This document shows, one piece after another, positions 25,181-40,348 of a DNA stretch of 64,000 nucleotides (positions within the stretch are counted from its first letter, which is position 1; each line of letters starts with the position of its first letter). Position numbers and translations under genes: made by a program. The notes beneath the pieces were generated by a model, which was given only the letters and a program-made list of their open reading frames with translations, was not told where the DNA came from and made no database searches. Location: positions 42,537 through 106,536 of the forward strand of contig CAWFCE010000002.1 of NCBI GenBank assembly GCA_963814275.1. Direction: 5' to 3'. Source of the stretch: Candidatus Parcubacteria bacterium (GTDB lineage: Bacteria; Patescibacteriota; Patescibacteriia; Patescibacteriales; UBA12075).

Positions 25181-26773
25181 ATTGTCACTCAAAAATGGTA
25201 ACGTACAAAAAACCTCCATTTCATTTCCAGAGATATATATTTTATCAATCACACGTTTATATATATCCCGCCTTTGTTGCGGTTTAATATTTTTTAGGTT
25301 GCGGGTATATTGAGCAAACATTTTAGTTAAATCTCTTTTTATTTGTTCCTTATTGTCATTAAATAATTGCCTTTCATTTAATTTATTAAGCTCTTTTATC
25401 ATTTCTTTCATTTCACCTTCAAGCTCTACTTTCTTTTTATAATAAATCTCTTTTAGAATTTGTTCATCTAAATACAAATCTAACAATCTTTTACTTTTAT
25501 CCTTTGCTGAGGCAATTAATTTTTCCAGCTCTTTGGTTCTGCTCATTATTTGAGCTGAGCTAATTTTTTTAGTTCTCATTTTTTCCATTAATCCCATCAC
25601 AACATCTGGATTAGAAATTATACTTTGTATCTTCTCCCACACAGGCGGCTCAATCATTTTTTCAGTCACACTGCCTGAATCGCATAAATTCTGTCGAAAA
25701 CTTGATAAGCTCCCATAACATTTATATCTAATTGACGGTTTATTTTTAGCATTACAATTATTGTAGCCACCATATTTATAACCACATTTTTTGCATAAAA
25801 TCATCCCCCCAAATAAATAAAGGTGTTTTGCTTTGCGCGTCGAGTATTGTTTATTTTTTCTGATTTGCTCCTGAACAGCTTGATGTTGAGCTTCGGTAAT
25901 TATTTGTGGGGTTTTAATTATTATCCAATCCTCTCTGGGTCGTAGGTTCTCATCATTTTTCACGCTCCCAACCTTCTTATATTTCCGATAAGTGAATTCA
26001 CCGCTGTACACCTCATTTTCAAGAATGCGATGAATTGTTCTGGTATTCCAAAAATATCTACCATTGGTCTTTTTGCTTCTTTTTGTTTTTTGGATAGCCT
26101 CATCTGATTTATTCTGTTTTTCTGATTGACTAATTAAATTATCAACCTTAGTAGGCACCTCTAAGGCTAACAGTCTCTTTTGTATTTTATATAAACTTAA
26201 ATGCTCTGTTATCACCCAATTATACATTTTACGGACCCATTTAGCTTCATCCTCATTTATAACTAGCATTTTCGTTTCTTTATTTAAGTTATAACCATAT
26301 GGTGGAGAACCCGCCCAATGATTTTTTTTCTTTGCCTCTAGCTGACCCATAAGCGTTCGGTCACGAATCATATCTCTCTCAAGTTCTGCGACCAAACCAA
26401 ACACCTGCATAAATGTTTTTCCTTGAGCTGAATTAGTATTTATGTTCTCTTTCACTGAAATGAAACCAACACCAAATTGTTTTAATTCGTCTACCATATT
26501 AAGTAACAAACGCAAATTGCGTGCATAGCGGTCTGTTTTATAAACGATAACAACATCAAATTTTTTTTCTCTTGCCCCCTTCATCAGCCTTTGAAGTTGT
26601 GGACGTTCTGACAAAAAACCACTATATCCCTCCTCTCTGAATATGAACTCTTTTGAATGTTTGAATCCATTATTTTCACAATACTTGATTAATTCCTCCT
26701 CCTGAACATCAAGGCTACATCCTTTAACCTGTTCATCGGAACTCACTCTAGTATAGATTGCTGCAGTTTCCAT
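25166..26773 (-). CDS. large serine recombinase (integrase)
   Basis: Resolvase catalytic domain (AAIYTRVSSDEQ, ...YKTDRYARN), a recombinase domain, a zinc ribbon (CKKCGYKY...CYGS...C) and a long coiled coil. The last 3 codons and the stop lie in host DNA beyond the crossover. Confidence 0.9.
   Translation of the reverse strand: METAAIYTRVSSDEQVKGCSLDVQEEELIKYCENNGFKHSKEFIFREEGYSGFLSERPQLQRLMKGAREKKFDVVIVYKTDRYARNLRLLLNMVDELKQFGVGFISVKENINTNSAQGKTFMQVFGLVAELERDMIRDRTLMGQLEAKKKNHWAGSPPYGYNLNKETKMLVINEDEAKWVRKMYNWVITEHLSLYKIQKRLLALEVPTKVDNLISQSEKQNKSDEAIQKTKRSKKTNGRYFWNTRTIHRILENEVYSGEFTYRKYKKVGSVKNDENLRPREDWIIIKTPQIITEAQHQAVQEQIRKNKQYSTRKAKHLYLFGGMILCKKCGYKYGGYNNCNAKNKPSIRYKCYGSLSSFRQNLCDSGSVTEKMIEPPVWEKIQSIISNPDVVMGLMEKMRTKKISSAQIMSRTKELEKLIASAKDKSKRLLDLYLDEQILKEIYYKKKVELEGEMKEMIKELNKLNERQLFNDNKEQIKRDLTKMFAQYTRNLKNIKPQQRRDIYKRVIDKIYISGNEMEVFCTLPFLSDNQRMG
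25175..25195. repeat. left junction (attL-like): core TCGTTG + island half-site TTGTCACTCAAAAA
   Basis: The core is identical to 40808-40813. 25182-25195 is the reverse complement (13/14) of 40789-40802. Confidence 0.8.
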
Positions 26774-27146
26774 ATATTTGCTAATATTAAATGTTTATAC
26801 TATTAATTATATCACACACGAAACTTTTATTGCTAATTTTAGCATTTTATTTTACCCCAGTTCGCATAAACCGACCCCATATTTATTCAACTAAACTGAA
26901 GTATTATTATTTATATTCTGAAAATAGTTTTTTCCTCTTTACCGTAGGTAAGAGGAAAATGTTTTCTATCAGAATATATTTATATCAGAATAATTATATA
27001 TATTATTTGCAGTTCCTGGAGAACGACCCAGGGGCTTCAGGTAAACTGGCATAATTGTTTTTAAAAACCGACCTCGCTGGTTTATAAAAACATACTGCTG
27101 AAGCCCCGTTTTCAAAAATCAGGGTCGAGAGATATTATGCTCCGAA

Positions 27147-27590
27147 TTATTCATCGGATTTTATTTTATTTTTATATCTGGGGCAACTCTCACATTCTTC
27201 TTTACAGCCCCAACAAGAGTCTAATTCGTAATCTGATAATTTACAGTTCAATAATCTAACTTTGTCAGTAAGACAAAAACAGGGCTTGATATAATTATGT
27301 ATATATCGTTTTACTAATTTATATTTAATAAGTTTATTGACCCGTTTCTGTATAGGCGAGCTGCTTGTTATTTTAATCAACGGCAACTCTTTACGCATAT
27401 TCTTATAATCAACCCAAACATAAATATCATCAGGCTTATTATTGTCACTGAATCTTACTAATCTTGAGTTTTTACTTTGGCACATCTTCATTATAAATGC
27501 CAGGATTGCTCCGTCAATCAAATCAAGTTCTCCCCCTCCGATTGTCTGTAGAACTTTTTGATTGATGAATATGTTGTACATCATACGCAT
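27147..27590 (-). CDS. putative winged-helix DNA-binding protein with Cys-rich C-terminus
   Basis: The region LDLIDGAILAFIMKMCQ...IQKRVNKLIKYKLVKRY looks wHTH-like, and the C-terminus is CWGCKEECESCPRYK. Function not established. Confidence 0.4.
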   Translation of the reverse strand: MRMMYNIFINQKVLQTIGGGELDLIDGAILAFIMKMCQSKNSRLVRFSDNNKPDDIYVWVDYKNMRKELPLIKITSSSPIQKRVNKLIKYKLVKRYIHNYIKPCFCLTDKVRLLNCKLSDYELDSCWGCKEECESCPRYKNKIKSDE

Positions 27591-27707
27591 TGTTCTTATT
27601 ATTTAAATTAAATACAAAATCAATCAGCTCTTCCATGATGGCCCGACCTTTAATATCATCTTCTGAGTATATGATTTTGATTTTAGGTTTATTCATTATT
27701 AAACAAA

Positions 27708-27801
27708 AAAACTTTAAAATTTTAAGTTTGACGCGGGTTAGGTTGGTATAGACCTATTCAGGATTGGGCCTGAAACGTCAAACTTATAATTTTAAAGTTT
27801 T
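27708..27801. repeat. long inverted repeat (26-bp arms, 42-nt GC-richer loop)
   Basis: aaaactttaaaattttaagtttgacg (27708-27733) pairs with cgtcaaacttataattttaaagtttt (27776-27801) with one mismatch. Confidence 0.75.
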
Positions 27802-27822
27802 GGATATACCATTTACCCTTTT

Positions 27823-27850
27823 AAAAAAAGCCAATGCTTTTGCATTGGCT
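27823..27850 (-). terminator. intrinsic terminator after the 148-aa zinc-ribbon gene
   Basis: The stem gccaatgc/gcattggc with loop tttt is followed on the minus strand by U7. Confidence 0.65.
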
Positions 27851-27916
27851 AAAACAAAAAACGCCTCTGAAACACCACCATAATTTATGGTTGTATTTCA
27901 GAAGCGTCGTTTTTTC
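27851..27916. terminator. long hairpin with U-tracts on both strands (bidirectional terminator-like)
   Basis: acgcctctgaaa...tttcagaagcgt is flanked by an A-run upstream and a T-run downstream. The single mismatch is a G-U pair only in the minus-strand RNA. Confidence 0.55.
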
Positions 27917-27997
27917 GTCCGCACATCGGTGGTTCGTCCGATGTTCATTATTCAATTATCAAATCTATATACAGAATAGCACACGAATAAATTTGTG

Positions 27998-28444
27998 TCA
28001 AGATTTAATGGCTGAATAATCCATTCCAATATGTTTACCTGTTTTTCTAAGTACTTCTAAATCGTGCAGTTGCCCACATTTTGGACAGTTAATGATTGCA
28101 TTTATACATTCAATTGAATTAACTCTGCCAGTAAATATTGTTATAGTGTCCTGAGGCGCATCATCATCAGGTTTTATTCCTAATTTGTTTGCCTTCTTGC
28201 ATATTGAACATTTACAATTATTTATCTCAGAAACATTTTTAATCTCACATTTAAATGTCGGGTGTTTTTTGCAAGTTATTTTGACCGGCATATAAAAAGC
28301 CATTTTTCTGTTTTCAGTGGTTTTTAAATTTTTCGGCAAATTAGGTATATAGTAATTTTCTTCTTCATTGAATTGGGCTATAAATTCGCCGCAATCTTCA
28401 CAGTATAATTTTTTCTTATTCATATAGTTTTGCAATTTATGCAA
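27998..28444 (-). CDS. multi-zinc-ribbon small protein
   Basis: Paired Cys motifs are present: CEDCGEF, CKKH...CE, CKCSICKK, CPKCGQ. Confidence 0.5.
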   Translation of the reverse strand: MHKLQNYMNKKKLYCEDCGEFIAQFNEEENYYIPNLPKNLKTTENRKMAFYMPVKITCKKHPTFKCEIKNVSEINNCKCSICKKANKLGIKPDDDAPQDTITIFTGRVNSIECINAIINCPKCGQLHDLEVLRKTGKHIGMDYSAIKS

Positions 28445-28543
28445 TTTATTTTACCTAATATTTGAATAAAATATTATCATTATTTTATTAAATTTCGTCA
28501 AAACCAATTTTAATGTATAAAAAATATGTATTTTTTATACAGA

Positions 28544-30403
28544 TTATAAATTTTCCACTAATGAAAAACTATCATATAGCACGTCAACCAAGCTTTTCCC
28601 ATCCGAAATTATTTTTTCTAAATCTTCTCCAGATATCGGCAATATATAAATTTTATCGTCTTTTAATTTTTTTAACGTCTCCCTACAAGATTGCGGATAT
28701 TTGTTTCCTAAACCAGTAAAACCAGATTTGCTCACAAATACACCATGGCTCCCCGGATTTCTTCCTATTTTAGATGCGAAGCAAGTTATTTCTTTGCTAT
28801 CTGTTTTTTCCAAAGTATTTTTACACTCTACTCTAAAATTTAAACCAAGGTTTGTAATTAATTTATCTTTAGTATGTCTATTTTCAAAAATCCTATCAAT
28901 TTCACCATCAGATGTTTGTTTGTCTTTTTCTATGCAATTTATTCCGTTTAAAGAGGAAAACAAATATTCCGCTAAATCTTCCAGAGACTCCTTTTTTTCC
29001 ACATTGTCTCTGCCATCAGATTGTTTAAATCTATAATATTTTTTTAAAAGTATTGCTCTATCAGGTTTGAAAATATCATCCGGCCTATGTTCTGGTCGGA
29101 TAAATCCGACGACAGAATAATTAATGTTTTCTTTAATTTGCCTAGACAAGCAACTGGGACATTCATCATAATCTTCAATTTTTTCATTGCTAATAAATCC
29201 ACACGTCAAACACCTAATTCCATTATTTTTTTTCAAAAGACCAACACTTATCAACCCCTTTATTAGTTTGTTTGCGGTTTCTTCTTCGCAATTCAAAGCT
29301 ATTTGAATAAAAAATTTTTCCAGTCTTTTTTGTTGGTCTAATGTAATATTTTTTAGAAACTCCTTTGCACATTCTCGCTCATCTTCTGTCAATTTTGTTT
29401 TTATTAATTTTTCATTTATTATTTCATCTGTAATTTCCCTGACTCTTCTTGTTTCACTCTGTTTAGGAAGATTTAAAATAGACAAATCAAGTTCATGCCC
29501 TGCTTTATATGTAAGCACCAATTTTAAAGCACTCAACACAAGAAAACTCTCTTCCTCAGTAATATGTTTAGGGATGTAAAAAGTTCCATCTTCAGAATTC
29601 CCCCTTACCCTCACGCCATTTTGTAAAATAAAAGTTGGGGCTATGTCCTCATAGTTATTTGCATTTACTATTTCAATTATTTTTTTAACATCAGAATTAT
29701 TGTCCGCATCATCTTGCACAGTTGCCATAGATATTTTTAAACTTGCTATACCGCCTGATTTTATTTGTAATGTATTACTATTCTTTACTGCCTTTAAAAT
29801 ATCTTTCATTTTTTGCAAATCTTGATTAGTAAATTTTATTTTTATCTTATCCAATCCTAGATTTTCAGAAATCCAATTTTCAATTATTTCTATTTTCTCT
29901 TTTCTACATCTTATTTCTAATATATTTTCAAGTTCGTGAATCACGATGATTGCAAAAATGGGCGGCGTATATGTAATTGGAGTCCACTCATCCCTGACAA
30001 TTTTACTATCTCCCCTGAAAGCGATATGTATATACAATTTATTTTCTTTTTTTGAAAAAAAAGAAATTTGTGGCTTCTCATTCAATTTTGGTTTTAATTC
30101 TTTTTCCGGAATAATACTTTTGGTTATTTCATGATATAAATCACCGTCTTTCTTTTTTTCTATTTGATAATATATATAGGTTGAGGCCCTTCTTGTGTGA
30201 TTATATTGTTCTGACACAGAAAATATTTCAGCTTCAGAAACACAAGCCATTACTTTCTCTCTAATTAAATTTATATTGCCACCAACTGGTATTCCTTTTG
30301 TTCTAGCAATATTTTTAAAAACCTGAGTGGGTATTTCTCTTATATGCATATACATATTTAAAACGACTATTAATAGGTCATTTATAACAAAATTATACCG
30401 CAA
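28544..30403 (-). CDS. Mrr-like (PD-(D/E)xK) restriction-endonuclease-domain protein with large unknown N-terminal region
   Basis: The C-terminus DGEIDRIFE...FRVECKNTLEKTDSKEITCFASKI...GVFVSKSGFTG matches the Mrr_cat pattern (D...D...ExK...FxTTSxFT). An internal CLTCG...CPSC ribbon is present. The real start is probably ATG at 30355, because TATAAT on the minus strand at 30392-30397 lies inside the longest ORF. Confidence 0.65.
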   Translation of the reverse strand: MRYNFVINDLLIVVLNMYMHIREIPTQVFKNIARTKGIPVGGNINLIREKVMACVSEAEIFSVSEQYNHTRRASTYIYYQIEKKKDGDLYHEITKSIIPEKELKPKLNEKPQISFFSKKENKLYIHIAFRGDSKIVRDEWTPITYTPPIFAIIVIHELENILEIRCRKEKIEIIENWISENLGLDKIKIKFTNQDLQKMKDILKAVKNSNTLQIKSGGIASLKISMATVQDDADNNSDVKKIIEIVNANNYEDIAPTFILQNGVRVRGNSEDGTFYIPKHITEEESFLVLSALKLVLTYKAGHELDLSILNLPKQSETRRVREITDEIINEKLIKTKLTEDERECAKEFLKNITLDQQKRLEKFFIQIALNCEEETANKLIKGLISVGLLKKNNGIRCLTCGFISNEKIEDYDECPSCLSRQIKENINYSVVGFIRPEHRPDDIFKPDRAILLKKYYRFKQSDGRDNVEKKESLEDLAEYLFSSLNGINCIEKDKQTSDGEIDRIFENRHTKDKLITNLGLNFRVECKNTLEKTDSKEITCFASKIGRNPGSHGVFVSKSGFTGLGNKYPQSCRETLKKLKDDKIYILPISGEDLEKIISDGKSLVDVLYDSFSLVENL

Positions 30404-30550
30404 ATATTAGCATTTTGTCTTACTTAAGTCAATTCAATTATTATAATATTAATATTTTTTTATTTAATTTTCCCCTCTTCACAATGAATAAAAAACTTGC
30501 TTTATTAGCAATAAAATGGCATTCTTATATTAGAAATTAAATTTAAATTA

Positions 30551-32710
30551 ATGAGTTATACAGGAAGAAAACTTAATAAATATACCTGGATACCAAAATC
30601 AAAAACAGATTTAAGAGAATATCGTGAAGTGCTAAAAATTTGTCATACAATAGAGAATGAAAATGGATACTTTTCAGATAAAAGTCTTGGCAAAAAAATG
30701 GTGGAGTTACGAGCTATTGTTGACAGAGACAATTCCGCTAAAAGTTATGTAAAAAAATACGACGATAAAAAAATTGCTGACCAATCCTATGTTAGTAATG
30801 CTCGAATGTTAATTCGGATTTTTAGATGGCTGGGTTTTGTAAGTAAAGACTATGATTCAAATGAAAATGGTAAATTTTATTTAACGCCAGAAGGAGAAGA
30901 GTTATTACATTTTACTGGTCCATATCCAGCAATCATTGGTGAACAAAATGAAATGATTAAATTCCAAGAGGCTTTTGCTTCAATGAGATACCATAGCGTA
31001 AATGACGACACAAGATATAGAAACTACTATTTCAGGCAACGTGTGTTTTTCAATCTGATTCGCTTTTTAAAAATTTTTGATTACGCAACACATTATGAGC
31101 TAGCTCTTTCAGCACTTGTTTTGAAAGACGAAAGTAAAAATGAAATTAAATCAAAGAGGGACAAAATTTTAGAATGTCGCTCTGGCGGAAAAAACATCAG
31201 ATGGTTGATGGAAATATATGAAATGAATTGCGAAAACAAAAGCACTGTAACAGGTATTTATGACGGCCCAAAAGTGCTATTGTCTTTTGCGAGACAACTT
31301 GGATTAGTAGCTGAAATAAATTTAAAAGATTGTGATAAGAACATTATTAAAATGTATAAAAAAATGTATAAAAATAGTGGGGTTATCTCAGAAAAAAGCA
31401 TTAAAAAAATAAATCAAATCACACCCCTTGGTGAACAATTTGTTAATGAATATAAAAACAAAAATCTTTTATGGTATGAAAATTTACCGTCTGATAAAAA
31501 TCTCTTTTCAACATTTCTAATCTTATCAAAAAAGGGAATTGAAAAATCGGTAGCTAGTACACTCAAAATTAATTTAAAAAAAATTGAGCATCTTTTTGAG
31601 GAAAACAGCGGTAAATTATTTTTAAAAAAAGATGTAGATTTTAATCTATACAGAGACATTCCTTATGAAAACCGGAAACAAGTTATAGAAACTATAAAAT
31701 CAATTAACCCAAACTTTTTCAAACAAAAAGAAAAAGAAATCGTTATGCAAAAAATATTTAATCCAAACGAATACCCATTAAAAAGATGCATTGATTGTCA
31801 CCAGGGTTCTTGCGCATATTATAGAGAAAATATGGATGCACTTGGTGGGAAAGACAGATTTCCTACGAGAGTTTGTCCAGAAAATTTACTAACCTATAAT
31901 ATGGATGGGGAATTAGAAATTAACTCAAATGATTGTGTCGGATGCGGCCTCTGTTTAATAAATTGTAATTTTGACGGATTGAGCATTAATGAAAATAACC
32001 AGGTGATAAAAAATAAAAATACTACTGATGAATGTCTTGAGGTAACAATTGATGATAAAGAAAAAATTACAAAAAAACTCGAAGAAAAATATTTAAATCA
32101 CACAATAAGCTCATTGCCACCTAAAATAAAAAAACAGGACATGCCTAGTCTTGTTAAAAATTTTATATCTAAAATAGATAAGCCCGGAAAGAAGTGGGAC
32201 AAAGATAAATGTTATACCTATGTTAGAAATGTTTTTAAACTTTTTGATGTTAATGCTATATACTCTGGTTCGGGAGGAATGAAAACTCGCTCCGATGTTA
32301 CGATTGAATCGCCATTCATTGCCGTTAGCGAAGTAAAAAGTCCCGCTGAATCTCCAATTAATCTAAAAGCCGTAAGACAAGCTTTTCATGCAGCAATCCA
32401 AGCTAAAACTCAATTAACAATGGCCATTGGCCTCGAAACGCATAAAGGAGCTATTGAAGAAGAAGAAAAATTTAAAGAAGCCACGGGCATTGGTATCCTA
32501 CTACTCGAAATCAAATATCTCGCATTACTTGTGTACCTAAATCAATTCATTCAATATACACCAGATTCATTATTAAGATTAATAAAAAATTTTGGCAATC
32601 ATTTTAAACCAGAAAACTTCATTGATTATCTCAATAATGAAATAAAGCTTTGTAAAAATAAAATTACAACAGAAGAGATAAAAAAAATTGTTACTGACTC
32701 TTTTCAATAG
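30551..32710 (+). CDS. putative Type II(S) restriction endonuclease (AlwI-family-like) with embedded 2x[4Fe-4S] ferredoxin-type motif
   Basis: The gene is convergent with, and overlaps, two methyltransferase genes. The C-terminal SDVTIESPFIAVSEVKSP is a D...ExK motif. The N-terminal ARMLIRIFRWLGFV...YLTPEGEELL resembles AlwI/BstNBI-type recognition domains (from memory). Cys motifs are CIDCHQGSC...VCP and CVGCGLCLINC. Confidence 0.5.
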   Translation: MSYTGRKLNKYTWIPKSKTDLREYREVLKICHTIENENGYFSDKSLGKKMVELRAIVDRDNSAKSYVKKYDDKKIADQSYVSNARMLIRIFRWLGFVSKDYDSNENGKFYLTPEGEELLHFTGPYPAIIGEQNEMIKFQEAFASMRYHSVNDDTRYRNYYFRQRVFFNLIRFLKIFDYATHYELALSALVLKDESKNEIKSKRDKILECRSGGKNIRWLMEIYEMNCENKSTVTGIYDGPKVLLSFARQLGLVAEINLKDCDKNIIKMYKKMYKNSGVISEKSIKKINQITPLGEQFVNEYKNKNLLWYENLPSDKNLFSTFLILSKKGIEKSVASTLKINLKKIEHLFEENSGKLFLKKDVDFNLYRDIPYENRKQVIETIKSINPNFFKQKEKEIVMQKIFNPNEYPLKRCIDCHQGSCAYYRENMDALGGKDRFPTRVCPENLLTYNMDGELEINSNDCVGCGLCLINCNFDGLSINENNQVIKNKNTTDECLEVTIDDKEKITKKLEEKYLNHTISSLPPKIKKQDMPSLVKNFISKIDKPGKKWDKDKCYTYVRNVFKLFDVNAIYSGSGGMKTRSDVTIESPFIAVSEVKSPAESPINLKAVRQAFHAAIQAKTQLTMAIGLETHKGAIEEEEKFKEATGIGILLLEIKYLALLVYLNQFIQYTPDSLLRLIKNFGNHFKPENFIDYLNNEIKLCKNKITTEEIKKIVTDSFQ

Positions 32711-33461
32711 CTTTCTTCAACCTTTTTCGCGACATTTTTACATAATCATCATTTACTTCTATTCCTATAAAATTTCTTTTGTTTGTTAAAGCGCTCACCA
32801 CCTCACTTCCGGACCCTGAAAAAGGGACCAAGATTAAATCACCCTCATTAGAAAAATGATTTATTATTTTATCGCAAATAGCGAGGGGTTTTTGTGTTGG
32901 GTGATTAACTTTTTCTTTTTGATAATTTTTGCCTGCTAATGTAGGTATTCTCCAAATATCTCCTCCATGTTTACCTTTCGGATTAGGTGTCCAAGATTTG
33001 CCGTTCTTATTGATTTTATATTTTAATCTTTCAGTACTTTTATATGGCTCTCTTATAGTATGGTACGTGTAGTTTTTACTTTTAGTAAACCACAACAATG
33101 GTTCATAAGTCGAAGAAGGTGACCTACTATATTTTGACCAACCATTCTCGTAATTCCAAATAAATAGCCGACCGTAATTCATATTTATTTCATACAAGTA
33201 ACACTGCATATAACAAATATAATGATGTATGCCGTATACAAACAATGAACCACTCGGCTTCAAAACTCTTTTTGATTCATATAACCATTTCTTACTCCAA
33301 TCATACCAGTCCGAGACAGTATTCCATTTATCACTATCGTTTCCAAAATCTTTATTTAAGTTGTATGGAGGGTCAATAATTATTAAATCAACTGAATCAT
33401 CTTCAATTTTTTTAAATAAATTTAGACAATCGCCTTTATAAATTTTATTTGTGTTTAACAT
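32691..33461 (-). CDS. DNA methyltransferase, N6-adenine/N4-cytosine family (beta-class order)
   Basis: IIDPPYN (motif IV) is near the N-terminus. HPTQKPLAI...LVPFSGSGSE (AdoMet motif I) is near the C-terminus. Confidence 0.9.
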   Translation of the reverse strand: MLNTNKIYKGDCLNLFKKIEDDSVDLIIIDPPYNLNKDFGNDSDKWNTVSDWYDWSKKWLYESKRVLKPSGSLFVYGIHHYICYMQCYLYEINMNYGRLFIWNYENGWSKYSRSPSSTYEPLLWFTKSKNYTYHTIREPYKSTERLKYKINKNGKSWTPNPKGKHGGDIWRIPTLAGKNYQKEKVNHPTQKPLAICDKIINHFSNEGDLILVPFSGSGSEVVSALTNKRNFIGIEVNDDYVKMSRKRLKKAIEKSQ

Positions 33462-34332
33462 TTTGCAAAATTAAAATATATTGATGATGAATATTTGGCA
33501 CATAGGCAAATGGGTATCCATAAGGGAAAACCTTCTTCCTACTTTGATATAAAACTGTAATTCCTTTTAATTCATAGTTGCCTTTCTCCTCTAAATAATT
33601 TGATAAATCAGTATGAAATGTATAAAATTTGCTTTTATGTCTAAAATCACTCACAACAATACATAAATATTTTTCTGGCTTTAACACAACGGAACAATCA
33701 TCAAAAAAATCTCCCAATACCTGAATGAATTTTTTGTAATCTCCTATATTAGCTAAGTCCTTTTTATTATTACTATATTTTGTATCTAATTTCTTTTCCA
33801 CTCTTTCTTGTTTCGCTTTGTGGTCAATCTTATTCAAGATATTCCAATACGGAGGCGAAGTGACTATAAAATCAAAAAAATTATCTTCATAGGTTTTTAT
33901 CTTCTCTAGAGCATCTCCATACACCACCTCTTGTTTTAAGTAATTTACATTTTTCTCATCTACTTCATTTTTCAACCTCTTGTCAGTTAAATTACAGTAC
34001 TTTTTCATCAATTCAATTCCAACACCTTTTCTGCCGCTCAATGCACAGGCTTTCAAAGTTGAACCTACACCCAAAAATGGGTCCAAAACTTTTTGGCCCT
34101 TTTTTGTAAAGAAATTAATCAAGCGTTGTACGTCCTGATATGAATATGGAGCTGGATGCATTTTTTCTATTTTTGCATCTTCATGTTTTGCTCCCAAGCC
34201 CTTCTGAACAAAAACGGATATAGTTTCAGGTATCCATTCTTTTGCGGTTAGGTTATTCAGTTTATTTCTTTTATCATATTTACCCTTAGATTCTTTTATT
34301 TTCCCCTCCTTATTTTCTTTTTCTTTTTTCAT
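33445..34332 (-). CDS. DNA methyltransferase, N4/N6 family with permuted motif order (SPPY type)
   Basis: HPAPYSYQ...VLDPFLGVGST (motif I) precedes IVTSPPYWN (motif IV). SPPY is typical of N4-cytosine enzymes, but specificity is not established. Confidence 0.85.
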   Translation of the reverse strand: MKKEKENKEGKIKESKGKYDKRNKLNNLTAKEWIPETISVFVQKGLGAKHEDAKIEKMHPAPYSYQDVQRLINFFTKKGQKVLDPFLGVGSTLKACALSGRKGVGIELMKKYCNLTDKRLKNEVDEKNVNYLKQEVVYGDALEKIKTYEDNFFDFIVTSPPYWNILNKIDHKAKQERVEKKLDTKYSNNKKDLANIGDYKKFIQVLGDFFDDCSVVLKPEKYLCIVVSDFRHKSKFYTFHTDLSNYLEEKGNYELKGITVLYQSRKKVFPYGYPFAYVPNIHHQYILILQNVKHK

Positions 34333-34387
34333 ATTTTAATAATTTACATTTTAATAATCGCACAAAAATCTAATTATATCAATTTAA

Positions 34388-34409
34388 AAGGGACAAACAA
34401 TTGTCCCTT
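34388..34409 (-). terminator. hairpin downstream of the short recombinase gene
   Basis: aagggacaa / ttgtccctt with loop acaa. The U-tract is weak. Confidence 0.35.
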
Positions 34410-34438
34410 GTTGTATCAATAATATAACAAAAATTACC

Positions 34439-35203
34439 CTAAATTGCAAAAACATTTAATTCAATATTTTTATTATTTATACCTTTATATTTAGTTTTCC
34501 CTTTGTATATACGATTATTAATAATATATCTCACAGTGCCTGCGTGCCATTTACCACCCCTCGCAGTTTTTATATTTAAACGATTCAATTCTTTCACAAT
34601 TTCTCTTAAACTCATTTTTCTTCTTAATTGAAATATAAATCTTACTACTTCTGCTTGCGATTTATTAACCAGCAACTTCTTATCCTTAGAAACATATCCA
34701 TAAGCCGGGCTACCGCCAGCATAGCCACCTTTTTCAGCTTTCTTGATTCTTCCATTCATCATTCGCATTGTTATTAATCCTTTTTCATATTGCGCCACTG
34801 CTGAAAGCATTTGCCTGAATAGCACCCTCGTAATATCTTTACTATCTAAATCCGGTTCTTTAATTGAAATTATTTGTTTGCCTTTTCTCTCCTGTAAATC
34901 ATAAATAATATTTTCTTGAATTCTTAAATCTCTTGCAAGTCTGTCGAGTTTGTATATTATTATTCCATCAACGTTTTGATTTACCTCAATGTAATTAAAC
35001 ATTTCCGACATTCCTTTTCTATCGTGCCATTCAAGACTGCCACTTACTCCATCATCCTTAAATGTTTCTATCAATCTTATATTATTCTTGTCTGCATAAG
35101 ATTTTAAATCTTCAACTTGATGATTTATGGTTCCTTCCTCTTTTTGATTTTCAGTTGATGTACGGCAATAGCCAATTAAATTTAATCGCTTCACTTTATC
35201 CAT
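34439..35203 (-). CDS. short serine recombinase (resolvase domain + recombinase domain, no zinc-ribbon or coiled coil)
   Basis: LIGYCRTSTENQ carries the catalytic Ser, with ...YKLDRLARD. The recombinase-domain region reads GGSPAYGYV...VRFIFQL...LNRLNIKTARGGKWHAGTVRYIINNRIYKG. The protein ends where large serine recombinases continue. Confidence 0.8.
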   Translation of the reverse strand: MDKVKRLNLIGYCRTSTENQKEEGTINHQVEDLKSYADKNNIRLIETFKDDGVSGSLEWHDRKGMSEMFNYIEVNQNVDGIIIYKLDRLARDLRIQENIIYDLQERKGKQIISIKEPDLDSKDITRVLFRQMLSAVAQYEKGLITMRMMNGRIKKAEKGGYAGGSPAYGYVSKDKKLLVNKSQAEVVRFIFQLRRKMSLREIVKELNRLNIKTARGGKWHAGTVRYIINNRIYKGKTKYKGINNKNIELNVFAI

Positions 35204-35516
35204 AGAGGTATTTGATTATGTTTTTAAATTTTGTCGGTTCAAAATACAAATCTCTCTCAATGCCAAGCCCGAAGCTACCAACAAAGCTTTCAAGCTCATA
35301 CAAACTGAATGAACCCCATTCATCATTATGGTCGCCGAAAATTGACACATAGCCATAGAATATTTTACTTTCCTCATCATATTCTGTGGCGAACCAAGTC
35401 CCCTGACCTTGCGGATTAAAAAATTTACAGACAACAATAGGATTATCATTGTCTGATTGTGAGCCAATTTTTTTGAATTGTTTAATTAGCTCTGGAGTTA
35501 ATAGTTTCATAAGCAA
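35196..35516 (-). CDS. DUF2958-like protein
   Basis: KFFNPQGQGTWFATEYDEE...FYGYVSIFG...EWGSFSLYELE matches the remembered DUF2958 pattern seen on plasmids and ICEs. It overlaps the recombinase start by 8 nt. Confidence 0.6.
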   Translation of the reverse strand: MLMKLLTPELIKQFKKIGSQSDNDNPIVVCKFFNPQGQGTWFATEYDEESKIFYGYVSIFGDHNDEWGSFSLYELESFVGSFGLGIERDLYFEPTKFKNIIKYLYG

Positions 35517-35570
35517 AACTAAAAGTGAGCCGGTTATCGGCTCACTTTTTGAATTAGTTTATTTAAATAA

Positions 35571-36020
35571 TTATTTGGTTTTATTTTTTTCAATTTCATT
35601 TTTTATATCTTGTTTAATTCTTCCAAAAAATGAATTCTTTTTTCTTTCTTCCTTTTCGATTCTCTTTCTCTTCTGCTCTTCATATTTAATAAATTTTTTT
35701 ATAACGTCCTTTGCCCACCACTTATCAGTTTTAATTGGCAGGTCATTTTTTATAAATATTTTTGCTGTCTTGATTTTTTTATTCCCTGAAAAACCACCCA
35801 ACGCTTTAAATTCATATTCTTGATGCAATAATAAATATTGTTGATTTTTATTATACTCGGCTATTTTACATAAAGGAAAAAACTCTTTTAAATAGCTTTC
35901 AAATTTTTGAATACCGGCAGGATAAATATTATTATCATTTAAAAACTCACCGCAATGTTTACATTTTATTGCTTCAATTTTTATTTCTTCTGCACAGTAT
36001 GGGCATTTTTTTGTATCCAT
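35571..36020 (-). CDS. zinc-ribbon domain protein with Lys/Glu-rich tail
   Basis: The N-terminus is KKCPYCAEEIKIEAIKCKHCGEFL. Confidence 0.6.
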   Translation of the reverse strand: MDTKKCPYCAEEIKIEAIKCKHCGEFLNDNNIYPAGIQKFESYLKEFFPLCKIAEYNKNQQYLLLHQEYEFKALGGFSGNKKIKTAKIFIKNDLPIKTDKWWAKDVIKKFIKYEEQKRKRIEKEERKKNSFFGRIKQDIKNEIEKNKTK

Positions 36021-36030
36021 ATGATTTTAA

Positions 36031-36050
36031 ACCTAAAATGTATTTTAGGT
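36031..36050. promoter_or_regulatory. 20-bp palindrome ACCTAAAATGTATTTTAGGT (operator-like), copy 1
   Basis: 9-bp arms with a 2-bp centre, 10 bp upstream of the 35571..36020 start codon. An identical copy lies at 40317-40336. Confidence 0.55.
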
Positions 36051-36065
36051 CTGTTATTATTTTCC

Positions 36066-36185
36066 AACAAAAAGGACCGCCTGTCGGCGATTCCTTTGCA
36101 GGAATCCATCACCCTTTCGGATGACGGCCACGTGAATAGCTCCGACTCGACGGTCGTCTTTATTCACGTGGACTTTCGACCATAT
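36066..36185 (-). ncRNA. candidate structured RNA / 3'-UTR element (GC-rich, unclassified)
   Basis: An 11-bp perfect stem (36128-36138 / 36161-36171). In minus-sense RNA there is a 9-bp stem capped by GAAA, a C-GAAA-G hairpin, a 6-bp stem (gauucc/ggaauc), and a terminal CGCC-GACA-GGCG hairpin followed by UCCUUUUU. G-U pairs favour the minus strand. Confidence 0.4.
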
Positions 36186-36365
36186 CCTTAACAATTTGCC
36201 AAGGGGTTAGGTCTTAATTTAATTGTTTTATATTTTATAGAGCTATTATACCATTTACAAGCTAAAATTCAACCATATTTTCAGTTGTGTGACGTGTTTG
36301 TCGTATAAATTGATATTATTACATTTTATGGTTAAAAATTTCATACAATGCGTTTTATGGATAAT

Positions 36366-37229
36366 TCAATAAATATCGTAATCTAAAGCCATATCAATAA
36401 AATTTTTTAACTGCTTCCTGCTGTTAATTTCAGTATTCTGATAGTCTAAGATTATAAAATTATTTTTTAGCCTGTCTTTGTTTTCCTTTTTTTTAATTTT
36501 TTTAATCTCTTCAAAATATGATATTGACTTATCTTTTCTGAACACAATGGGACCCTCTGTTATTGCACAACTTGCATAGCTGAAGTAACTTTGCGAATTT
36601 ATATCTCGCGGTAGTTTTTTTATCAATATTTTTTTTCTACTCGCATTGTACCTGATAAGATTAAATATCACATCTCTTGAATTATTACAATCCTCAAATG
36701 ACATTGGTTCATTATCAAAATAATCTTGATGAAGCCATATCTCGTGAAATCCAGGCTTTATTGCAATCAATTCGGCGTAGATACTGAAATAGTTTTTTAT
36801 ATCAAGCTTTCTCAAGCTTTTTAGAATTATAAAGAGACGCTTTCGCGCCTCTGAAAATTTTGCTCTCTTTTTTGCCTCAAGACTAAAGCCCTGGCTTTCC
36901 CAAAAATAATCATTCGGCTTTCTGTGTTTTGTTCCTCCCTGATATACATTCAAGGAGGCCATCGACTGGTAAGCACGATTTTTTGTTGCTCGCAAAAAAA
37001 ATCGCGGGGCAATGGCCATCCTTGAATTGAATATACATTTTAAATATTCTAGTCTACAAAAATTAAATACTCTCTCCAACTCCTCAATTAAATAATTAAT
37101 ATTTTTAAAATCAAAAACGACCCCTTGAGGGTCGGCAGGTGATAATTGGTATTTTGACGTTCTATAATTGTATTTTTGTATATAATCATTCATATATACA
37201 ATTATATAGGATATTGGTATATTTGTCAA
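36366..37229 (-). CDS. hypothetical protein (287 aa), last gene of five-gene operon
   Basis: ORF with island-like composition, 34 nt downstream of the preceding gene. No motif recognised. Confidence 0.6.
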   Translation of the reverse strand: MTNIPISYIIVYMNDYIQKYNYRTSKYQLSPADPQGVVFDFKNINYLIEELERVFNFCRLEYLKCIFNSRMAIAPRFFLRATKNRAYQSMASLNVYQGGTKHRKPNDYFWESQGFSLEAKKRAKFSEARKRLFIILKSLRKLDIKNYFSIYAELIAIKPGFHEIWLHQDYFDNEPMSFEDCNNSRDVIFNLIRYNASRKKILIKKLPRDINSQSYFSYASCAITEGPIVFRKDKSISYFEEIKKIKKKENKDRLKNNFIILDYQNTEINSRKQLKNFIDMALDYDIY

Positions 37230-37263
37230 ATTTTAATGCTAATATTAGTAAATATTATTTAAT

Positions 37264-38700
37264 TCAATTAATGTTTTTCTCTAATAAAAACTTTTCGATA
37301 GATTTTTTCCATTCTTGAAGATGTTCAATCGAATTGTTGTCAAAATGATTTTTAAATGTTTCATAATTAGTATTCAAATCGCCTAATAATGATTGAATAT
37401 TTTTTTCTCTTATATCTTCAAATTCTTTTCTCTTTACCTCTAAATAATGTCTTAATGAAACATCTTTAGTCTCGGTGGTAGCAAATTCACGAGAAACCAA
37501 TCGACCATTAACCTTAAAGGTTGATTTTTTTACTCTTCCAAATACTGCCTGAAAATTCTCAATAAAATCTTTATATTCGCTTAGGTGTGCATTGCAGGTA
37601 CTGCAAGAACAAATTTTGTCTTTAAATATCTGATATTCAGAAATATTTAAAATTTCCAAAATAGTCAGCATCTCTTTATAACTAATTCTTTTATGGAGAG
37701 GGTATAAATAAAATTTTGGTACTGGCAAGCCACCGCCCACTGGAACTACTGGTCTTGATTCTCCATATTCAAGACCGTGACAAACACCATCTAATAAACC
37801 AACATCATTATTGCTTAGTAAGATAGAAAAATATGAGCCGTACAATGAATATATTTTTTTTGATGTCCTTGTTTTAATTTCATTCAGAAGTTTAATATAT
37901 ATATCAAGATTTTCTGAAATTTCTTCGTGCTCCACATAATTATCTATCCATAATAAAAAACCATCCGCATTACTATCTATGTATCTATCTATAATAGCTT
38001 TTTTGAGTTCGCTATCATCAAAATTTTCTCTTGCTTTTTCAATAAATTTTTTACTTAACACTATCTGACCATATACTGGCAAATCACGCTCTATTACTTT
38101 AGCTTTATTTATTAGTGCAACATTTTTTTCTACCCATTCAGTTTTGTCAATATAAAAATAAGGAGCTATCAAAAACTCGGGCTTACTTTTAAATTCAATA
38201 TCAAAATCTTCCTCTTTTTCATTTGCATAATCTATGTATTCTTTATATTGGTCTACTTTCTTTTCTACGGAAATGTTTTTTTGGTAATTCAATACATTTG
38301 CAGTAAAGGTTTCTATAAATTGCTCATCGACATCATCGGGATATAAGGGTTTTTTGGGAATTAGAATTTCTTTACCATTTTTATCTTCAATACACCCAGT
38401 AATTAAATTTTTTAATTCATCACCATATTGAATAATCAAATTTGATATAGATTTTTTAATCTTCTCATCATCAGACCCTAAAATAAAAGATTGATTATGT
38501 TGAAAGGCGTGAGTTATTGGGTCAATAATAAATGGTTGCTCTGTGGTACTTTTAACAATAAAAGAAGCAAGGGCAACAGGAGAAAAAGCAACCATATTTG
38601 CATTGATTACTATTTTGTCATAATTATTCTCCAAGCCATTACCAAAAAAATATTTTTGTTCTGCATTTGTGCCGTATCTTAATAAATGTTCACTTGCCAT
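37264..38700 (-). CDS. hypothetical 478-aa protein with TGT/DpdA-like hallmarks
   Basis: An alternating beta/alpha-like pattern is visible (FIIDPITHAFQ, LIAPYFYI, GFLLWIDN, IYSLYGSYF, LLDGVCHGLEYGESR), followed by CSCSTC...H. That CxCxxC...H arrangement is the TGT zinc-site layout. This is a hypothesis only. Confidence 0.6.
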   Translation of the reverse strand: MASEHLLRYGTNAEQKYFFGNGLENNYDKIVINANMVAFSPVALASFIVKSTTEQPFIIDPITHAFQHNQSFILGSDDEKIKKSISNLIIQYGDELKNLITGCIEDKNGKEILIPKKPLYPDDVDEQFIETFTANVLNYQKNISVEKKVDQYKEYIDYANEKEEDFDIEFKSKPEFLIAPYFYIDKTEWVEKNVALINKAKVIERDLPVYGQIVLSKKFIEKARENFDDSELKKAIIDRYIDSNADGFLLWIDNYVEHEEISENLDIYIKLLNEIKTRTSKKIYSLYGSYFSILLSNNDVGLLDGVCHGLEYGESRPVVPVGGGLPVPKFYLYPLHKRISYKEMLTILEILNISEYQIFKDKICSCSTCNAHLSEYKDFIENFQAVFGRVKKSTFKVNGRLVSREFATTETKDVSLRHYLEVKRKEFEDIREKNIQSLLGDLNTNYETFKNHFDNNSIEHLQEWKKSIEKFLLEKNIN

Positions 38701-38707
38701 ACCATTT

Positions 38708-39157
38708 TTATAATGAAAGTAATAATTGATAATTATTATTACTCAAAGAATATTCTAAATTACTAAACAAAATTTTTTTTGCTCTTTTAACAATAGTATT
38801 TTTTTGTGGCTTTATTTCCATGGAAACTTTCTGCGTTTGCATATCAAACAATATTAAGCCCAATTTATTTTCTTTAATTTCTTTATGTAATACTTCTTTA
38901 TATTCTTGTTTTGGTAAACATAGACACAAATATTCAGCACCAATAGAGTGGTTTCTAGCTTGTTTTATCCCCTTTCTCCAATCTTTCAATTTAAATTCAA
39001 TTGCATATAAATTCCCCTTTCTGTCTTTGTAGACGACATCTATACTATTGTCAAAAAAAGGAACTTCTACTGAAAATATTTTGTTGTTTTTAAAATAGGC
39101 TTTACAAAAATTTACTACCATTTCTCTTTCATCATAATGGTTAATATTTGTTTTCAT
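38708..39157 (-). CDS. small PD-(D/E)xK nuclease-fold protein
   Basis: SVEVPF...SIDVVYKD...LYAIEFKLKDWRKGIKQA gives an E...D...ExK...Q arrangement. Confidence 0.5.
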   Translation of the reverse strand: MKTNINHYDEREMVVNFCKAYFKNNKIFSVEVPFFDNSIDVVYKDRKGNLYAIEFKLKDWRKGIKQARNHSIGAEYLCLCLPKQEYKEVLHKEIKENKLGLILFDMQTQKVSMEIKPQKNTIVKRAKKILFSNLEYSLSNNNYQLLLSL

Positions 39158-39641: not shown

Positions 39642-39652
39642 AAATGTAGGTA

Positions 39653-40336: not shown

Positions 40337-40348
40337 ATTATCCAATAA

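What the first reader, a model, noticed from the sequence alone, without database searches (positions are those of the whole stretch)
30551..34332. R-M module with two amino-methyltransferases and an endonuclease carrying a ferredoxin-type 2x[4Fe-4S] motif
Two PF01555-type methyltransferases are present. One has DPPY followed by FSGSGSE. The other has the permuted order DPFLGVGST followed by SPPY. They overlap each other by 17 nt and are convergent with a 719-aa protein, overlapping it by 20 nt. That protein ends in a D...SEVK PD-(D/E)xK motif. Two methyltransferases with one nuclease is the usual solution for asymmetric (Type IIS) sites. The N-terminal region and catalytic segment recall AlwI/BstNBI-family enzymes. 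Between them lies KRCIDCHQGSC...RVCP...CVGCGLCLINC, which follows the CxxCxxCxxxC(P) spacing of dicluster ferredoxin domains. I know of Fe-S clusters in AddB/Cas4/Dna2-type nucleases, but I do not know of a ferredoxin-type dicluster domain inside a Type II restriction enzyme.
Basis: partly seen in the sequence, partly recalled or inferred. Interest (0 to 1): 0.6.

Follow-up and report, generated by a model that had tools for sequence, protein, structure and literature searches.

The report
Restriction enzyme carrying a ferredoxin domain
A mobile genomic island carries an intact restriction-modification system whose FokI-like DNA-cutting enzyme has a strictly conserved two-cluster iron-sulfur (ferredoxin-type) domain between its DNA-reading and DNA-cutting halves, a cofactor domain I could not find described for this class of enzymes.

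Summary
A 719-aa ORF lies convergent with two PF01555 methyltransferases, with overlaps of 20 and 17 nt. The three-gene cassette recurs in seven unrelated genomic contexts (nuclease 30-56% identical) and has relatives in other architectures.

The predicted structure (pLDDT 86) best matches the Type IIS enzymes FokI and Nt.BspD6I. D582, E594 and K596 are invariant. No member hits the RE_AlwI or FokI sequence models, so the resemblance is at fold level only.

Between the recognition and cleavage domains lies a segment with eight cysteines: C-x2-C-x4-C-x20-CP-x19-C-x2-C-x2-C-x3-C. All eight are invariant in 22 of 22 homologues, while six other cysteines vary. A family profile matches real 2x[4Fe-4S] ferredoxins (E about 1e-8).

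The same Fe-S-plus-nuclease module occurs in split systems (recognition subunit plus two Fe-S nuclease paralogues) and in other fusions, always beside two methyltransferase domains. A few branches lost the cysteines but kept the nuclease, which suggests a structural or regulatory role.

No report of such a domain in a Type II enzyme was found. Verdict: real, and a new variant of a known kind. Cluster binding, recognition site and cleavage remain untested.

The parts
30551..32710 (+). R gene: 719-aa putative Type IIS-like restriction endonuclease (recognition domain, ferredoxin-type domain, FokI-like cleavage domain)
   Evidence: ORF; 22 full-length homologues; AF2 model pLDDT 85.9; Foldseek top hits FokI and Nt.BspD6I
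30551..31750 (+). N-terminal DNA-recognition region (aa 1-400), basic (net +18, pI 9.4); homologous to stand-alone ~350-aa subunits of split systems
   Evidence: hhalign A1 vs A3: probability 99.1%, E 3.9e-19 over aa 14-340; whole-protein match to FokI/Nt.BspD6I and match to the BpuJI recognition domain, TMt 0.51; charge
31763..32035 (+). Ferredoxin-type dicluster domain (aa 405-495); ligand cysteines C413, C416, C421, C442(P), C462, C465, C468, C472 (codons 31787-31966)
   Evidence: 8 Cys invariant in 22/22 and in 14 divergent module sequences; Fer4 models hit in 22/22 members; profile vs PDB ferredoxins; local fold matches
32048..32707 (+). Cleavage domain (aa 500-719): basic helical segment plus PD-(D/E)xK core with R580, D582 (32294-32296), E594, K596 (32336-32338)
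   Evidence: D582/E594/K596 invariant; R580/D582/E594 invariant across architectures; module model matches FokI and Nt.BspD6I at probability 0.97-1.0; 5 members weakly hit Mrr_cat
32691..33461 (-). M1: 256-aa beta-class PF01555 methyltransferase (DPPY then FSGSGSE), probably N6-adenine
   Evidence: PF01555 E 6.5e-53; nearest solved structure M.MboIIA, E 6.7e-41; 58% identical orthologue in L013
33445..34332 (-). M2: 295-aa permuted PF01555 methyltransferase (DPFLGVGST then SPPY), possibly N4-cytosine; the constant partner of the nuclease family
   Evidence: PF01555 E 4e-24; 50-54% identical orthologues beside fused and split nucleases
25186..40799 (.). About 15.6-kb low-GC (~30% vs ~48%) integrative island that carries the cassette; boundaries are approximate (about +/-20 bp)
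   Evidence: Composition; terminal inverted repeat CACTCAAAAA / TTTTTGAGTG; large serine recombinase at the left edge and LTD-domain gene fragments on both sides

Best explanation
The region encodes an intact three-gene Type IIS-like restriction-modification system carried on a serine-recombinase island. M1 (beta-class, DPPY, M.MboIIA-like, probably m6A) and M2 (permuted, SPPY, possibly m4C) each protect one strand of an asymmetric recognition site. The 719-aa enzyme is built like FokI: a basic N-terminal recognition region reads the site, and a C-terminal PD-(D/E)xK domain (D582/E594/K596) cuts nearby. It has one catalytic site per chain and no conserved partner subunit, so it most likely cuts both strands by transient dimerisation of cleavage domains, as FokI does. 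Between the two halves sits a ~90-residue ferredoxin-type domain that most likely binds two [4Fe-4S] clusters through eight invariant cysteines. I propose that this domain is a cluster-stabilised structural hub. It would fix the geometry between recognition and cleavage parts, or dock nuclease subunits in the split relatives, and so make active enzyme depend on cluster insertion. I do not think it acts as an electron carrier or as part of the catalytic site. Shown computationally: gene arrangement, co-inheritance, domain order, fold similarity, residue invariance. Inferred: site asymmetry, methylated bases, dimerisation, cluster binding, and the role of the domain.
For: Cassette conserved in seven unrelated contexts for the 707-737-aa class (window; L001, L004, L006, L008, L011, L013), with M1 58%, M2 50% and R 32% identical in the most distant pair. 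AF2 model pLDDT 85.9, pTM 0.84. Best solved-structure matches are FokI (E 1.2e-7) and Nt.BspD6I (E 2e-7), and again for the C-terminal module alone. D582/E594/K596 are invariant. Eight Cys are invariant in 22/22, while 6 of the other 7 Cys vary. The signature is present in about 70 relatives. In 14 module sequences at ~20% identity the invariant positions are the 8 Cys, the CP proline, R580, D582 and E594. Fer4 models are hit by 22/22 members, best E 1.6e-7. The family profile hits clostridial 2x[4Fe-4S] ferredoxins at ~1e-8 and polyferredoxins at 2e-21. Local superposition on ferredoxin-type subunits gives rmsd 1.1-1.5 A over 40-49 columns. The module is reused in split systems (S subunit + Fer4-NucA + Fer4-NucB with two methyltransferases), in a 579-aa S-Nuc fusion plus a Fer4-NucB, and in an 800-aa fusion with a fused double methyltransferase. 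Structural rather than catalytic role: several branches lost the ligands but kept D..ExK. The precedent is the non-essential, assembly-promoting ferredoxin-like domain of archaeal RNAP Rpo3 (PMC5300874). Two methyltransferases per asymmetric site is the norm (PMC4081073).
Against: Nothing has been tested biochemically. The window protein's own Fer4 hit is below Pfam's cutoff (22.2 vs 27 bits), and the first half-motif has non-canonical spacing. No sequence-level membership in RE_AlwI or FokI families. Foldseek TM-scores for whole chains are low (0.22-0.36), as expected for multi-domain proteins but not strong. No residue-level structural alignment or coordinates were available, so cysteine geometry was not checked. 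The Fe-S segment is acidic in the window protein (pI 4.5) and has no conserved charge across the family. That leaves its interaction partner unknown and is equally compatible with an electron-transfer or sensor role. Strict invariance of all 8 Cys over ~30% identity is stronger conservation than a dispensable scaffold might need.
Confidence: 0.7

Rival explanations
1. The Fe-S domain is a redox, oxygen or iron sensor that gates restriction. The nuclease would be active only with intact (or reduced) clusters, so restriction switches with the cell's redox or iron state or with oxygen exposure.
For: All eight ligands are strictly invariant across the 22-member family, which is more than a passive spacer might require. 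The domain keeps a ferredoxin-like acidic character in the window protein. Several carriers look anaerobic or uncultured: desulfoferrodoxin and rubrerythrin lie next to the cassette in L006, and there are Patescibacteria sources. The Rpo3 ferredoxin-like domain has been proposed to regulate assembly (PMC5300874).
Against: There is no partner reductase or electron donor in any of the conserved neighbourhoods. Some lineages dispensed with the ligands. This reading overlaps with the structural explanation rather than excluding it.
Confidence: 0.25
2. The 719-aa protein is a strand-specific nicking enzyme, or the large subunit of a heteromeric enzyme like Nt.BspD6I, rather than a FokI-like enzyme that dimerises to cut both strands.
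For: Nt.BspD6I is as good a structural match as FokI. Relatives do use two nuclease paralogues, A and B. Large subunits of heteromeric Type IIS enzymes nick on their own (PMC3017599).
Against: No small or second nuclease subunit is conserved next to the 707-737-aa class in any of seven contexts, nor next to the 800-aa form. A nicking-only enzyme would be a weak restriction barrier.
Confidence: 0.15
3. The cysteine array is a vestigial or zinc-binding structural motif and does not hold Fe-S clusters in vivo.
For: The first half-motif has non-canonical spacing, and the window protein scores below Pfam's cutoff. Ligand loss in some branches shows the nuclease can exist without the cysteines.
Against: The CP and C-x2-C-x2-C-x3-C(P) signatures are specific to Fer4. 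The profile is significantly similar to real 2x[4Fe-4S] ferredoxins. Several homologues pass PF00037's curated cutoff. The fold superposes on cluster-binding subunits. Vestigial motifs do not stay invariant at all eight positions.
Confidence: 0.08
4. The cassette is not a restriction system: the 719-aa protein is a DNA-binding regulator or repair factor, and the methyltransferases are orphan or epigenetic enzymes.
For: No defence or restriction model (PADLOC, NCBIfam, Pfam RE families) recognises the protein. Sources label relatives as ferredoxins.
Against: Strict co-inheritance with two methyltransferases in every architecture; location on mobile elements and next to other defence genes (GmrSD, DpnI, Mrr-like); an invariant PD-(D/E)xK triad and a FokI-like fold.
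Confidence: 0.05

Closest known systems
FokI (Type IIS; PDB 1FOK/2FOK)
   Same: Best structural match. Same domain logic: N-terminal recognition region, C-terminal single-site PD-(D/E)xK cleavage domain, asymmetric-site biology with two methyltransferase activities (PMC2673415, PMC4081073).
   Different: No detectable sequence similarity and no hit to FokI Pfam models. FokI has a short linker where this protein has a ~90-aa eight-cysteine ferredoxin-type domain. The methyltransferases here are two separate PF01555 enzymes, not one fused protein.
Nt.BspD6I / BstNBI (RE_AlwI family, PF09491; PDB 2EWF)
   Same: Second-best structural match over the whole chain and for the module. FokI-like recognition domain plus PD-(D/E)xK domain. 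Heteromeric relatives parallel the large/small subunit design (PMC3017599).
   Different: PF09491 is not hit by any of 22 family members. There is no small subunit gene beside the window cassette, and BspD6I has no Fe-S domain.
MboII R-M system (M1.MboII m6A, M2.MboII on the opposite strand)
   Same: M1 is most similar to M.MboIIA among solved structures (E 6.7e-41). Both systems have two separate methyltransferases with different chemistry or motifs acting on one asymmetric target.
   Different: The target site here is unknown. M2 here is a permuted PF01555 enzyme. No significant similarity to any solved restriction enzyme was found by sequence.
Heteromeric Type IIS/IIT enzymes (BbvCI, Bpu10I, BsrDI, BtsI)
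   Same: Split relatives of the window enzyme encode two different nuclease paralogues plus two methyltransferases, the same logic as Class III/IV enzymes (PMC3017599).
   Different: The split relatives add a separate recognition subunit, and each nuclease paralogue has its own ferredoxin-type domain. The window enzyme itself is a single chain.
Fe-S nucleases of the PD-(D/E)xK superfamily (AddB, Cas4, Dna2, Exo5)
   Same: A PD-(D/E)xK nuclease associated with an Fe-S cofactor thought to be structural (PMC4176176, PMC3439918, PMC8610317).
   Different: Those enzymes bind a single cluster through four cysteines that staple the nuclease fold itself. Here a discrete, self-contained ferredoxin-fold domain with two cluster sites precedes the nuclease domain.
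Ferredoxin-like domains in non-redox nucleic-acid machines (archaeal RNAP Rpo3/subunit D; ABCE1/Rli1)
   Same: A dicluster ferredoxin-type domain embedded in a non-redox protein. In Rpo3 it is non-essential, promotes assembly and is absent in some lineages (PMC5300874). This parallels the ligand losses seen here.
   Different: Unrelated host proteins and functions. No nuclease or restriction context.

Membership tests
Type IIS restriction-modification system | Endonuclease and cognate methyltransferase gene(s) adjacent and co-inherited | tested here: met
   Cassette conserved in seven unrelated contexts; all three genes are orthologous in the most distant pair
Type IIS restriction-modification system | Separate recognition and cleavage domains in the endonuclease | tested here: met
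   AF2 model and domain-wise matches. The two halves occur as separate genes in relatives
Type IIS restriction-modification system | Asymmetric recognition sequence with cleavage at a fixed offset outside it | not testable with these tools
   Needs cleavage mapping. Only indirect support from the two different methyltransferases (PMC4081073)
Type IIS restriction-modification system | Two methyltransferase activities, one per strand | tested here: inconclusive
   Two different PF01555 enzymes are present and conserved. Strand and base specificity were not determined
RE_AlwI / BstNBI family (PF09491) | Significant match to the family sequence model | tested here: not met
   No hit at E<=0.1 for the window protein or at E<=1 for any of 22 members
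RE_AlwI / BstNBI family (PF09491) | Fold similarity to a solved member (Nt.BspD6I) | tested here: met
   Foldseek E 2e-7 to 8e-6, probability 1.0 for the whole chain; probability 0.97-1.0 for the module
FokI family | Match to FokI sequence models | tested here: not met
   No FokI Pfam family among the hits of 22 members; no PDB sequence hit
FokI family | Fold similarity to FokI | tested here: met
   Top Foldseek hit 2fok_B, E 1.2e-7; module E 2.4e-3, probability 0.99-1.0
PD-(D/E)xK nuclease superfamily | Conserved D ... (D/E)-x-K catalytic motif | tested here: met
   D582, E594 and K596 invariant in 22/22; R580, D582 and E594 invariant across architectures
PD-(D/E)xK nuclease superfamily | Metal-dependent phosphodiester hydrolysis | not testable with these tools
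   Requires enzyme assays
Dicluster 2x[4Fe-4S] ferredoxin domain (Fer4 clan) | Two cysteine motifs, each ending in a CP-type fourth ligand, eight ligands in all | tested here: met
   C413-x2-C416-x4-C421-x20-C442-P and C462-x2-C465-x2-C468-x3-C472. The first motif is non-canonical in spacing. The residue after C472 is N in the window and P in most homologues
Dicluster 2x[4Fe-4S] ferredoxin domain (Fer4 clan) | Score above the curated family threshold | tested here: inconclusive
   The window protein is below threshold (Fer4_7 22.2 vs 27 bits). Relatives pass PF00037 (28.7-31.9 vs 21.1). 22/22 members hit Fer4 models. The profile hits real ferredoxins at 1e-8 to 2e-21
Dicluster 2x[4Fe-4S] ferredoxin domain (Fer4 clan) | Ferredoxin fold | tested here: met
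   Local Foldseek matches to 9mqx_G (rmsd 1.5 A/49), 2vpw_B (1.3 A/48) and 6cz7_B (1.1 A/40)
Dicluster 2x[4Fe-4S] ferredoxin domain (Fer4 clan) | Actual binding of two [4Fe-4S] clusters | not testable with these tools
   Needs metal analysis, UV-vis and EPR
N6_N4_Mtase (PF01555) amino-methyltransferases | Family model match plus motif IV (D/S)PPY and motif I FxGxG | tested here: met
   M1 180 bits and M2 86 bits vs cutoff 26.7; motifs read directly from the translations

The most novel reading that the evidence does not exclude
The ferredoxin-nuclease unit is a previously unrecognised class of restriction cleavage module whose activity depends on two [4Fe-4S] clusters. It would be the first Fe-S cofactor in Type II restriction enzymes. 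It would couple DNA cleavage to the cell's redox, oxygen or iron status, or use the clusters to communicate between subunits or along DNA. It has been shuffled as a cassette among single-chain, two-subunit and three-subunit enzymes across bacteria and archaea.
Probability: 0.25. Interest if true: 0.85.

Novelty: new variant of a known kind. Interest (0 to 1): 0.62.

Why it matters
Type II and IIS restriction enzymes are among the best-studied proteins in molecular biology, and their known cofactors are divalent metal ions. The comprehensive 2014 review never mentions iron, Fe-S or ferredoxin. If confirmed, a conserved dicluster ferredoxin domain built into a FokI-like enzyme, and reused in split and fused relatives, would add a new cofactor class to restriction enzymology. 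It would raise a testable question: do the clusters act as scaffold, assembly checkpoint or redox gate? It would also explain why the family has been missed, because it is confined mostly to uncultured lineages and pipelines annotate it as 'ferredoxin', 'FixX', 'PreA' or 'hydrogenase component 2'. It also offers a natural series for dissecting the domain's role: with clusters, without clusters, fused and split. One relative is in a cultured Lachnospiraceae isolate. FokI-type cleavage domains are engineering workhorses, so a cleavage module with a built-in switchable cofactor could be of practical interest.

Tried and rejected


Full report
OBSERVATION. The 20-nt tail-to-tail overlap and the 17-nt overlap between the two minus-strand genes were verified at nucleotide level. 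M1 (256 aa) has IIIDPPY followed by FSGSGSE and matches PF01555 end to end (E 6.5e-53). M2 (295 aa) has DPFLGVGST followed by SPPY, and only its N-terminal part matches the C-terminal half of the PF01555 model (E 4e-24), as expected for a permuted order. The 719-aa protein contains the quoted cysteine strings and D582...S-E594-V-K596. There are two small corrections. The first half-motif is C-x2-C-x4-C with its CP cysteine 20 residues downstream, so only the second half is canonical. The SEVK motif is about 120 residues from the C-terminus.

SETTING. The cassette lies in a ~15.6-kb island of ~30% GC within ~48% GC bacterial DNA; GyrA, FtsK and SMC lie in the flanks. The boundaries are sharp at ~25186 and ~40799 and carry a terminal inverted repeat, CACTCAAAAA / TTTTTGAGTG. 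A 535-aa large serine recombinase sits at the left edge, and Lamin-Tail-Domain gene fragments flank the island on both sides. The island therefore looks like a serine-recombinase integrative element inserted into that gene.

IS IT A UNIT? The indexed search found 22 full-length homologues of the 719-aa protein, 707-737 aa long and 30-56% identical. In every context examined, the homologue is convergent with two PF01555 methyltransferase genes while the flanking genes differ completely. The contexts are L001-3, L004-5, L006, L008-10, L011/L012 and L013. In the most distant pair (window vs a Candidatus Poribacteria chromosome) M1 is 58% identical, M2 50% and the nuclease 32%. The neighbouring 619-aa Mrr_cat-like gene of the window is not part of the conserved unit. 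The family is rare: 2 loci among 185,579 species-representative genomes, and none in viral contigs, phage records or plasmid records.

WHAT IS THE 719-aa PROTEIN? Pfam, NCBIfam and PADLOC give no nuclease assignment; the only hits are sub-threshold Fer4 matches at residues 440-475. An AlphaFold2 model built on the 22-sequence alignment is confident (pLDDT 85.9, pTM 0.84). Its best matches among solved structures are the Type IIS enzymes FokI (E 1.2e-7) and Nt.BspD6I (E 2e-7 to 8e-6), followed by the BpuJI recognition domain and then ferredoxin-type subunits. A separate model of residues 405-719 (pLDDT 80) again finds FokI and Nt.BspD6I (probability 0.97-1.0). For the cysteine region it finds ferredoxin-type subunits with rmsd 1.1-1.5 A over 40-49 columns. 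D582, E594 and K596 are invariant in 22/22 sequences. Sequence-level membership is not: none of the 22 members hits PF09491 or any FokI model, and 5 weakly touch Mrr_cat. From the domain order I infer that the ferredoxin-type segment occupies the position of the FokI inter-domain linker. I had no residue-level structural alignment to prove this.

THE CYSTEINE DOMAIN. C413, C416, C421, C442 (followed by invariant P443), C462, C465, C468 and C472 are invariant in 22/22 sequences. Of the query's other seven cysteines only C31 is invariant. An exhaustive phmmer search of 1.84 billion representatives found 76 relatives, many of which match only residues ~405-715. The signature C-x2-C-x4-C-x(10-27)-CP-x(16-19)-C-x2-C-x2-C-x3-C is present in essentially all that span the region. 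In an alignment of 14 such modules at ~20% identity, the invariant positions are the eight cysteines, the CP proline, R580, D582 and E594. All 22 family members hit Fer4 models (best E 1.6e-7). Several relatives exceed PF00037's curated cutoff. A profile of the module hits real cluster-binding proteins in the PDB, including single-domain clostridial 2x[4Fe-4S] ferredoxins at ~1e-8 and polyferredoxins at 2e-21. This is as strong as sequence and predicted structure can make the case for two [4Fe-4S] clusters. Metal content remains untested.

A MODULE, NOT A ONE-OFF. The minimal ~310-330-aa Fer4-nuclease proteins sit in split systems. Two PF01555 methyltransferases (in one case a fused 591-aa double enzyme with an HTH gene) lie divergent from an operon of three genes: a ~350-aa protein, a Fer4-nuclease 'A' (D...E-x-K) and a paralogous Fer4 protein 'B' (29% identical to A, E 8e-18). 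The triad of B is altered to D...E-x-E or E...E-x-D. The ~350-aa protein is not similar to the query by BLASTP, but profile-profile comparison is decisive: probability 99.1%, E 3.9e-19 over query residues 14-340. It is therefore the stand-alone counterpart of the window protein's recognition half. M2 is 54% identical between the window and a split system and 53% identical to the partner in L001, whereas M1 is replaced there by a different 369-aa enzyme. Further variants exist. An 800-aa fusion is convergent with a 736-aa HTH-double-methyltransferase. A 579-aa recognition-nuclease fusion lacks the ferredoxin domain and is followed by a 359-aa Fer4-'B' subunit, on a mobilisable element of a cultured Lachnospiraceae isolate. 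These arrangements map onto known classes of asymmetric-site enzymes: single-chain FokI-like Class I versus heteromeric Class III/IV (PMC3017599). Type IIS and IIT enzymes are usually accompanied by two methyltransferases, one per strand, separate or fused (PMC4081073).

ROLE OF THE Fe-S DOMAIN. Some branches have lost the ligands while keeping the nuclease core. In P0029, P0048 and P0050 the second half-motif is deleted and CP has become SP. P0037, P0044 and P0102 have degenerate cysteines. P0105 lacks the domain in its catalytic chain but keeps it in the partner. This pattern argues against a direct catalytic role. It resembles the ferredoxin-like domain of archaeal RNA polymerase subunit Rpo3, which binds one or two [4Fe-4S] clusters, is non-essential and promotes assembly (PMC5300874). 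The segment is acidic in the window protein (net -6, pI 4.5) and has no conserved charge across the family (pI 4.1-8.5). The recognition region (pI 9.4) and the helical segment before the nuclease core (pI 9.6) are basic. A conserved DNA-backbone-binding function is therefore unlikely. My preferred reading is a cluster-stabilised structural or docking hub that also makes active enzyme contingent on cluster insertion. A true redox or oxygen gate is the main rival and is not excluded. No electron-donor gene is conserved nearby.

METHYLTRANSFERASES. M1's nearest solved relatives are M.MboIIA (E 6.7e-41) and M.RsrI, both N6-adenine enzymes. MboII is itself a Type IIS system with two methyltransferases acting on GAAGA/TCTTC. 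M2's solved relatives cover only the AdoMet-binding part, and annotated plasmid homologues are just 'DNA methyltransferase'. From general knowledge of motif IV, SPPY is more typical of N4-cytosine enzymes and DPPY of N6-adenine enzymes, so an m6A + m4C pair is plausible but untested.

NOVELTY. Full-text searches found Fe-S clusters in Cas4, Dna2, EndoIII and DndC, and a ferredoxin-type region in a BREX PAPS reductase. They found nothing in a Type II restriction enzyme. The 2014 Type II review contains no mention of iron, Fe-S or ferredoxin. Source annotations call family members 'ferredoxin', 'FixX', 'PreA subunit', 'hydrogenase component 2' or 'hypothetical'. REBASE could not be queried, so an unpublished putative entry cannot be excluded. 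I classify the finding as a new variant of a known kind: a Type IIS-like R-M system with a new, conserved cofactor domain and a family of related architectures.

Noticed in passing
window 25186-40799 (boundaries about +/-20 bp): A ~15.6-kb low-GC island (30% vs 48%) with sharp edges and a terminal inverted repeat (CACTCAAAAA / TTTTTGAGTG). A 535-aa large serine recombinase (25166-26773, -) sits at the left edge. Lamin-Tail-Domain gene fragments lie on both sides (22867-25188 and 40804-41661), which suggests an integrative element inserted into that gene.
   Followed up: partly
window 36089-36213 (-): Full-length Rfam LOOT RNA (RF03000) match at 74.8 bits against a gathering score of 46.4. It lies inside the island, between a zinc-ribbon ORF and an unannotated 287-aa ORF. 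Its link to a mobile element was not explored.
   Followed up: no
window 28544-30403 (-): A 619-aa protein with a borderline C-terminal Mrr_cat (PD-(D/E)xK) hit and a zinc-ribbon-like CxxC...CxxC, divergent from the nuclease gene. It is not conserved with the cassette elsewhere, so it is probably an independent nuclease or defence gene of the island.
   Followed up: partly
window 34439-35516 (-); L011 9819-11138; L006 2103-3686: A short (254-aa) serine recombinase lacking the zinc-ribbon/coiled-coil part, plus a DUF2958 gene, lies immediately downstream of M2. Serine recombinases also lie next to the cassette in L011 and near it in L006. The cassette may travel with such recombinases, and the window copy may be a remnant of a nested insertion.
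   Followed up: no
L014 3827-8975; L016 3625-9005; unnamed JGI contig of P0099: Split relatives: two methyltransferases divergent from [~350-aa recognition subunit][Fer4-nuclease A][Fer4 paralogue B with an altered triad]. L014 and L015 sit next to portal and capsid genes, so they may be prophage-borne.
   Followed up: yes
L017 4054-8797 (Lachnospiraceae bacterium HCP1S3_A8, protein MGN9172485.1): In a cultured isolate, a 579-aa recognition-nuclease fusion WITHOUT the ferredoxin domain is followed by a 359-aa Fer4 'B' subunit and preceded by two methyltransferases. The locus is on a mobilisable element with a relaxase and ArdC, next to WYL and GmrSD genes. This is a tractable experimental entry point.
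   Followed up: partly
proteins P0029, P0037, P0044, P0048, P0050, P0102: Family branches that have lost some or all cluster ligands (second half-motif deleted and CP changed to SP, or degenerate cysteines) while retaining the D...E-x-K nuclease core. They are natural cluster-less controls.
   Followed up: partly
L008 242-493, L009 1270-1521, L010 205-456; L006 11772-11984; L019 2698-4908: Small HTH genes (HVO_A0261_N-type upstream of R; HTH_17 after the methyltransferases) or an HTH fused to the double methyltransferase occur in some relatives. They are possible controller or autoregulatory elements. None is present in the window cassette.
   Followed up: no
window 39653-40237 (-): A 194-aa ORF near the right end of the island has a weak, sub-threshold SocA/Panacea antitoxin-domain hit (E 4e-4). 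Several other island ORFs (287, 478 and 166 aa) have no family match.
   Followed up: no
database annotations of homologues (P0003, P0006, P0010, P0099): Public pipelines label members of this nuclease family as 'NAD-dependent dihydropyrimidine dehydrogenase PreA subunit', 'ferredoxin-like protein FixX', 'ferredoxin' or 'Fe-S-cluster-containing hydrogenase component 2'. This is systematic mis-annotation driven by the Fer4 motif.
   Followed up: yes
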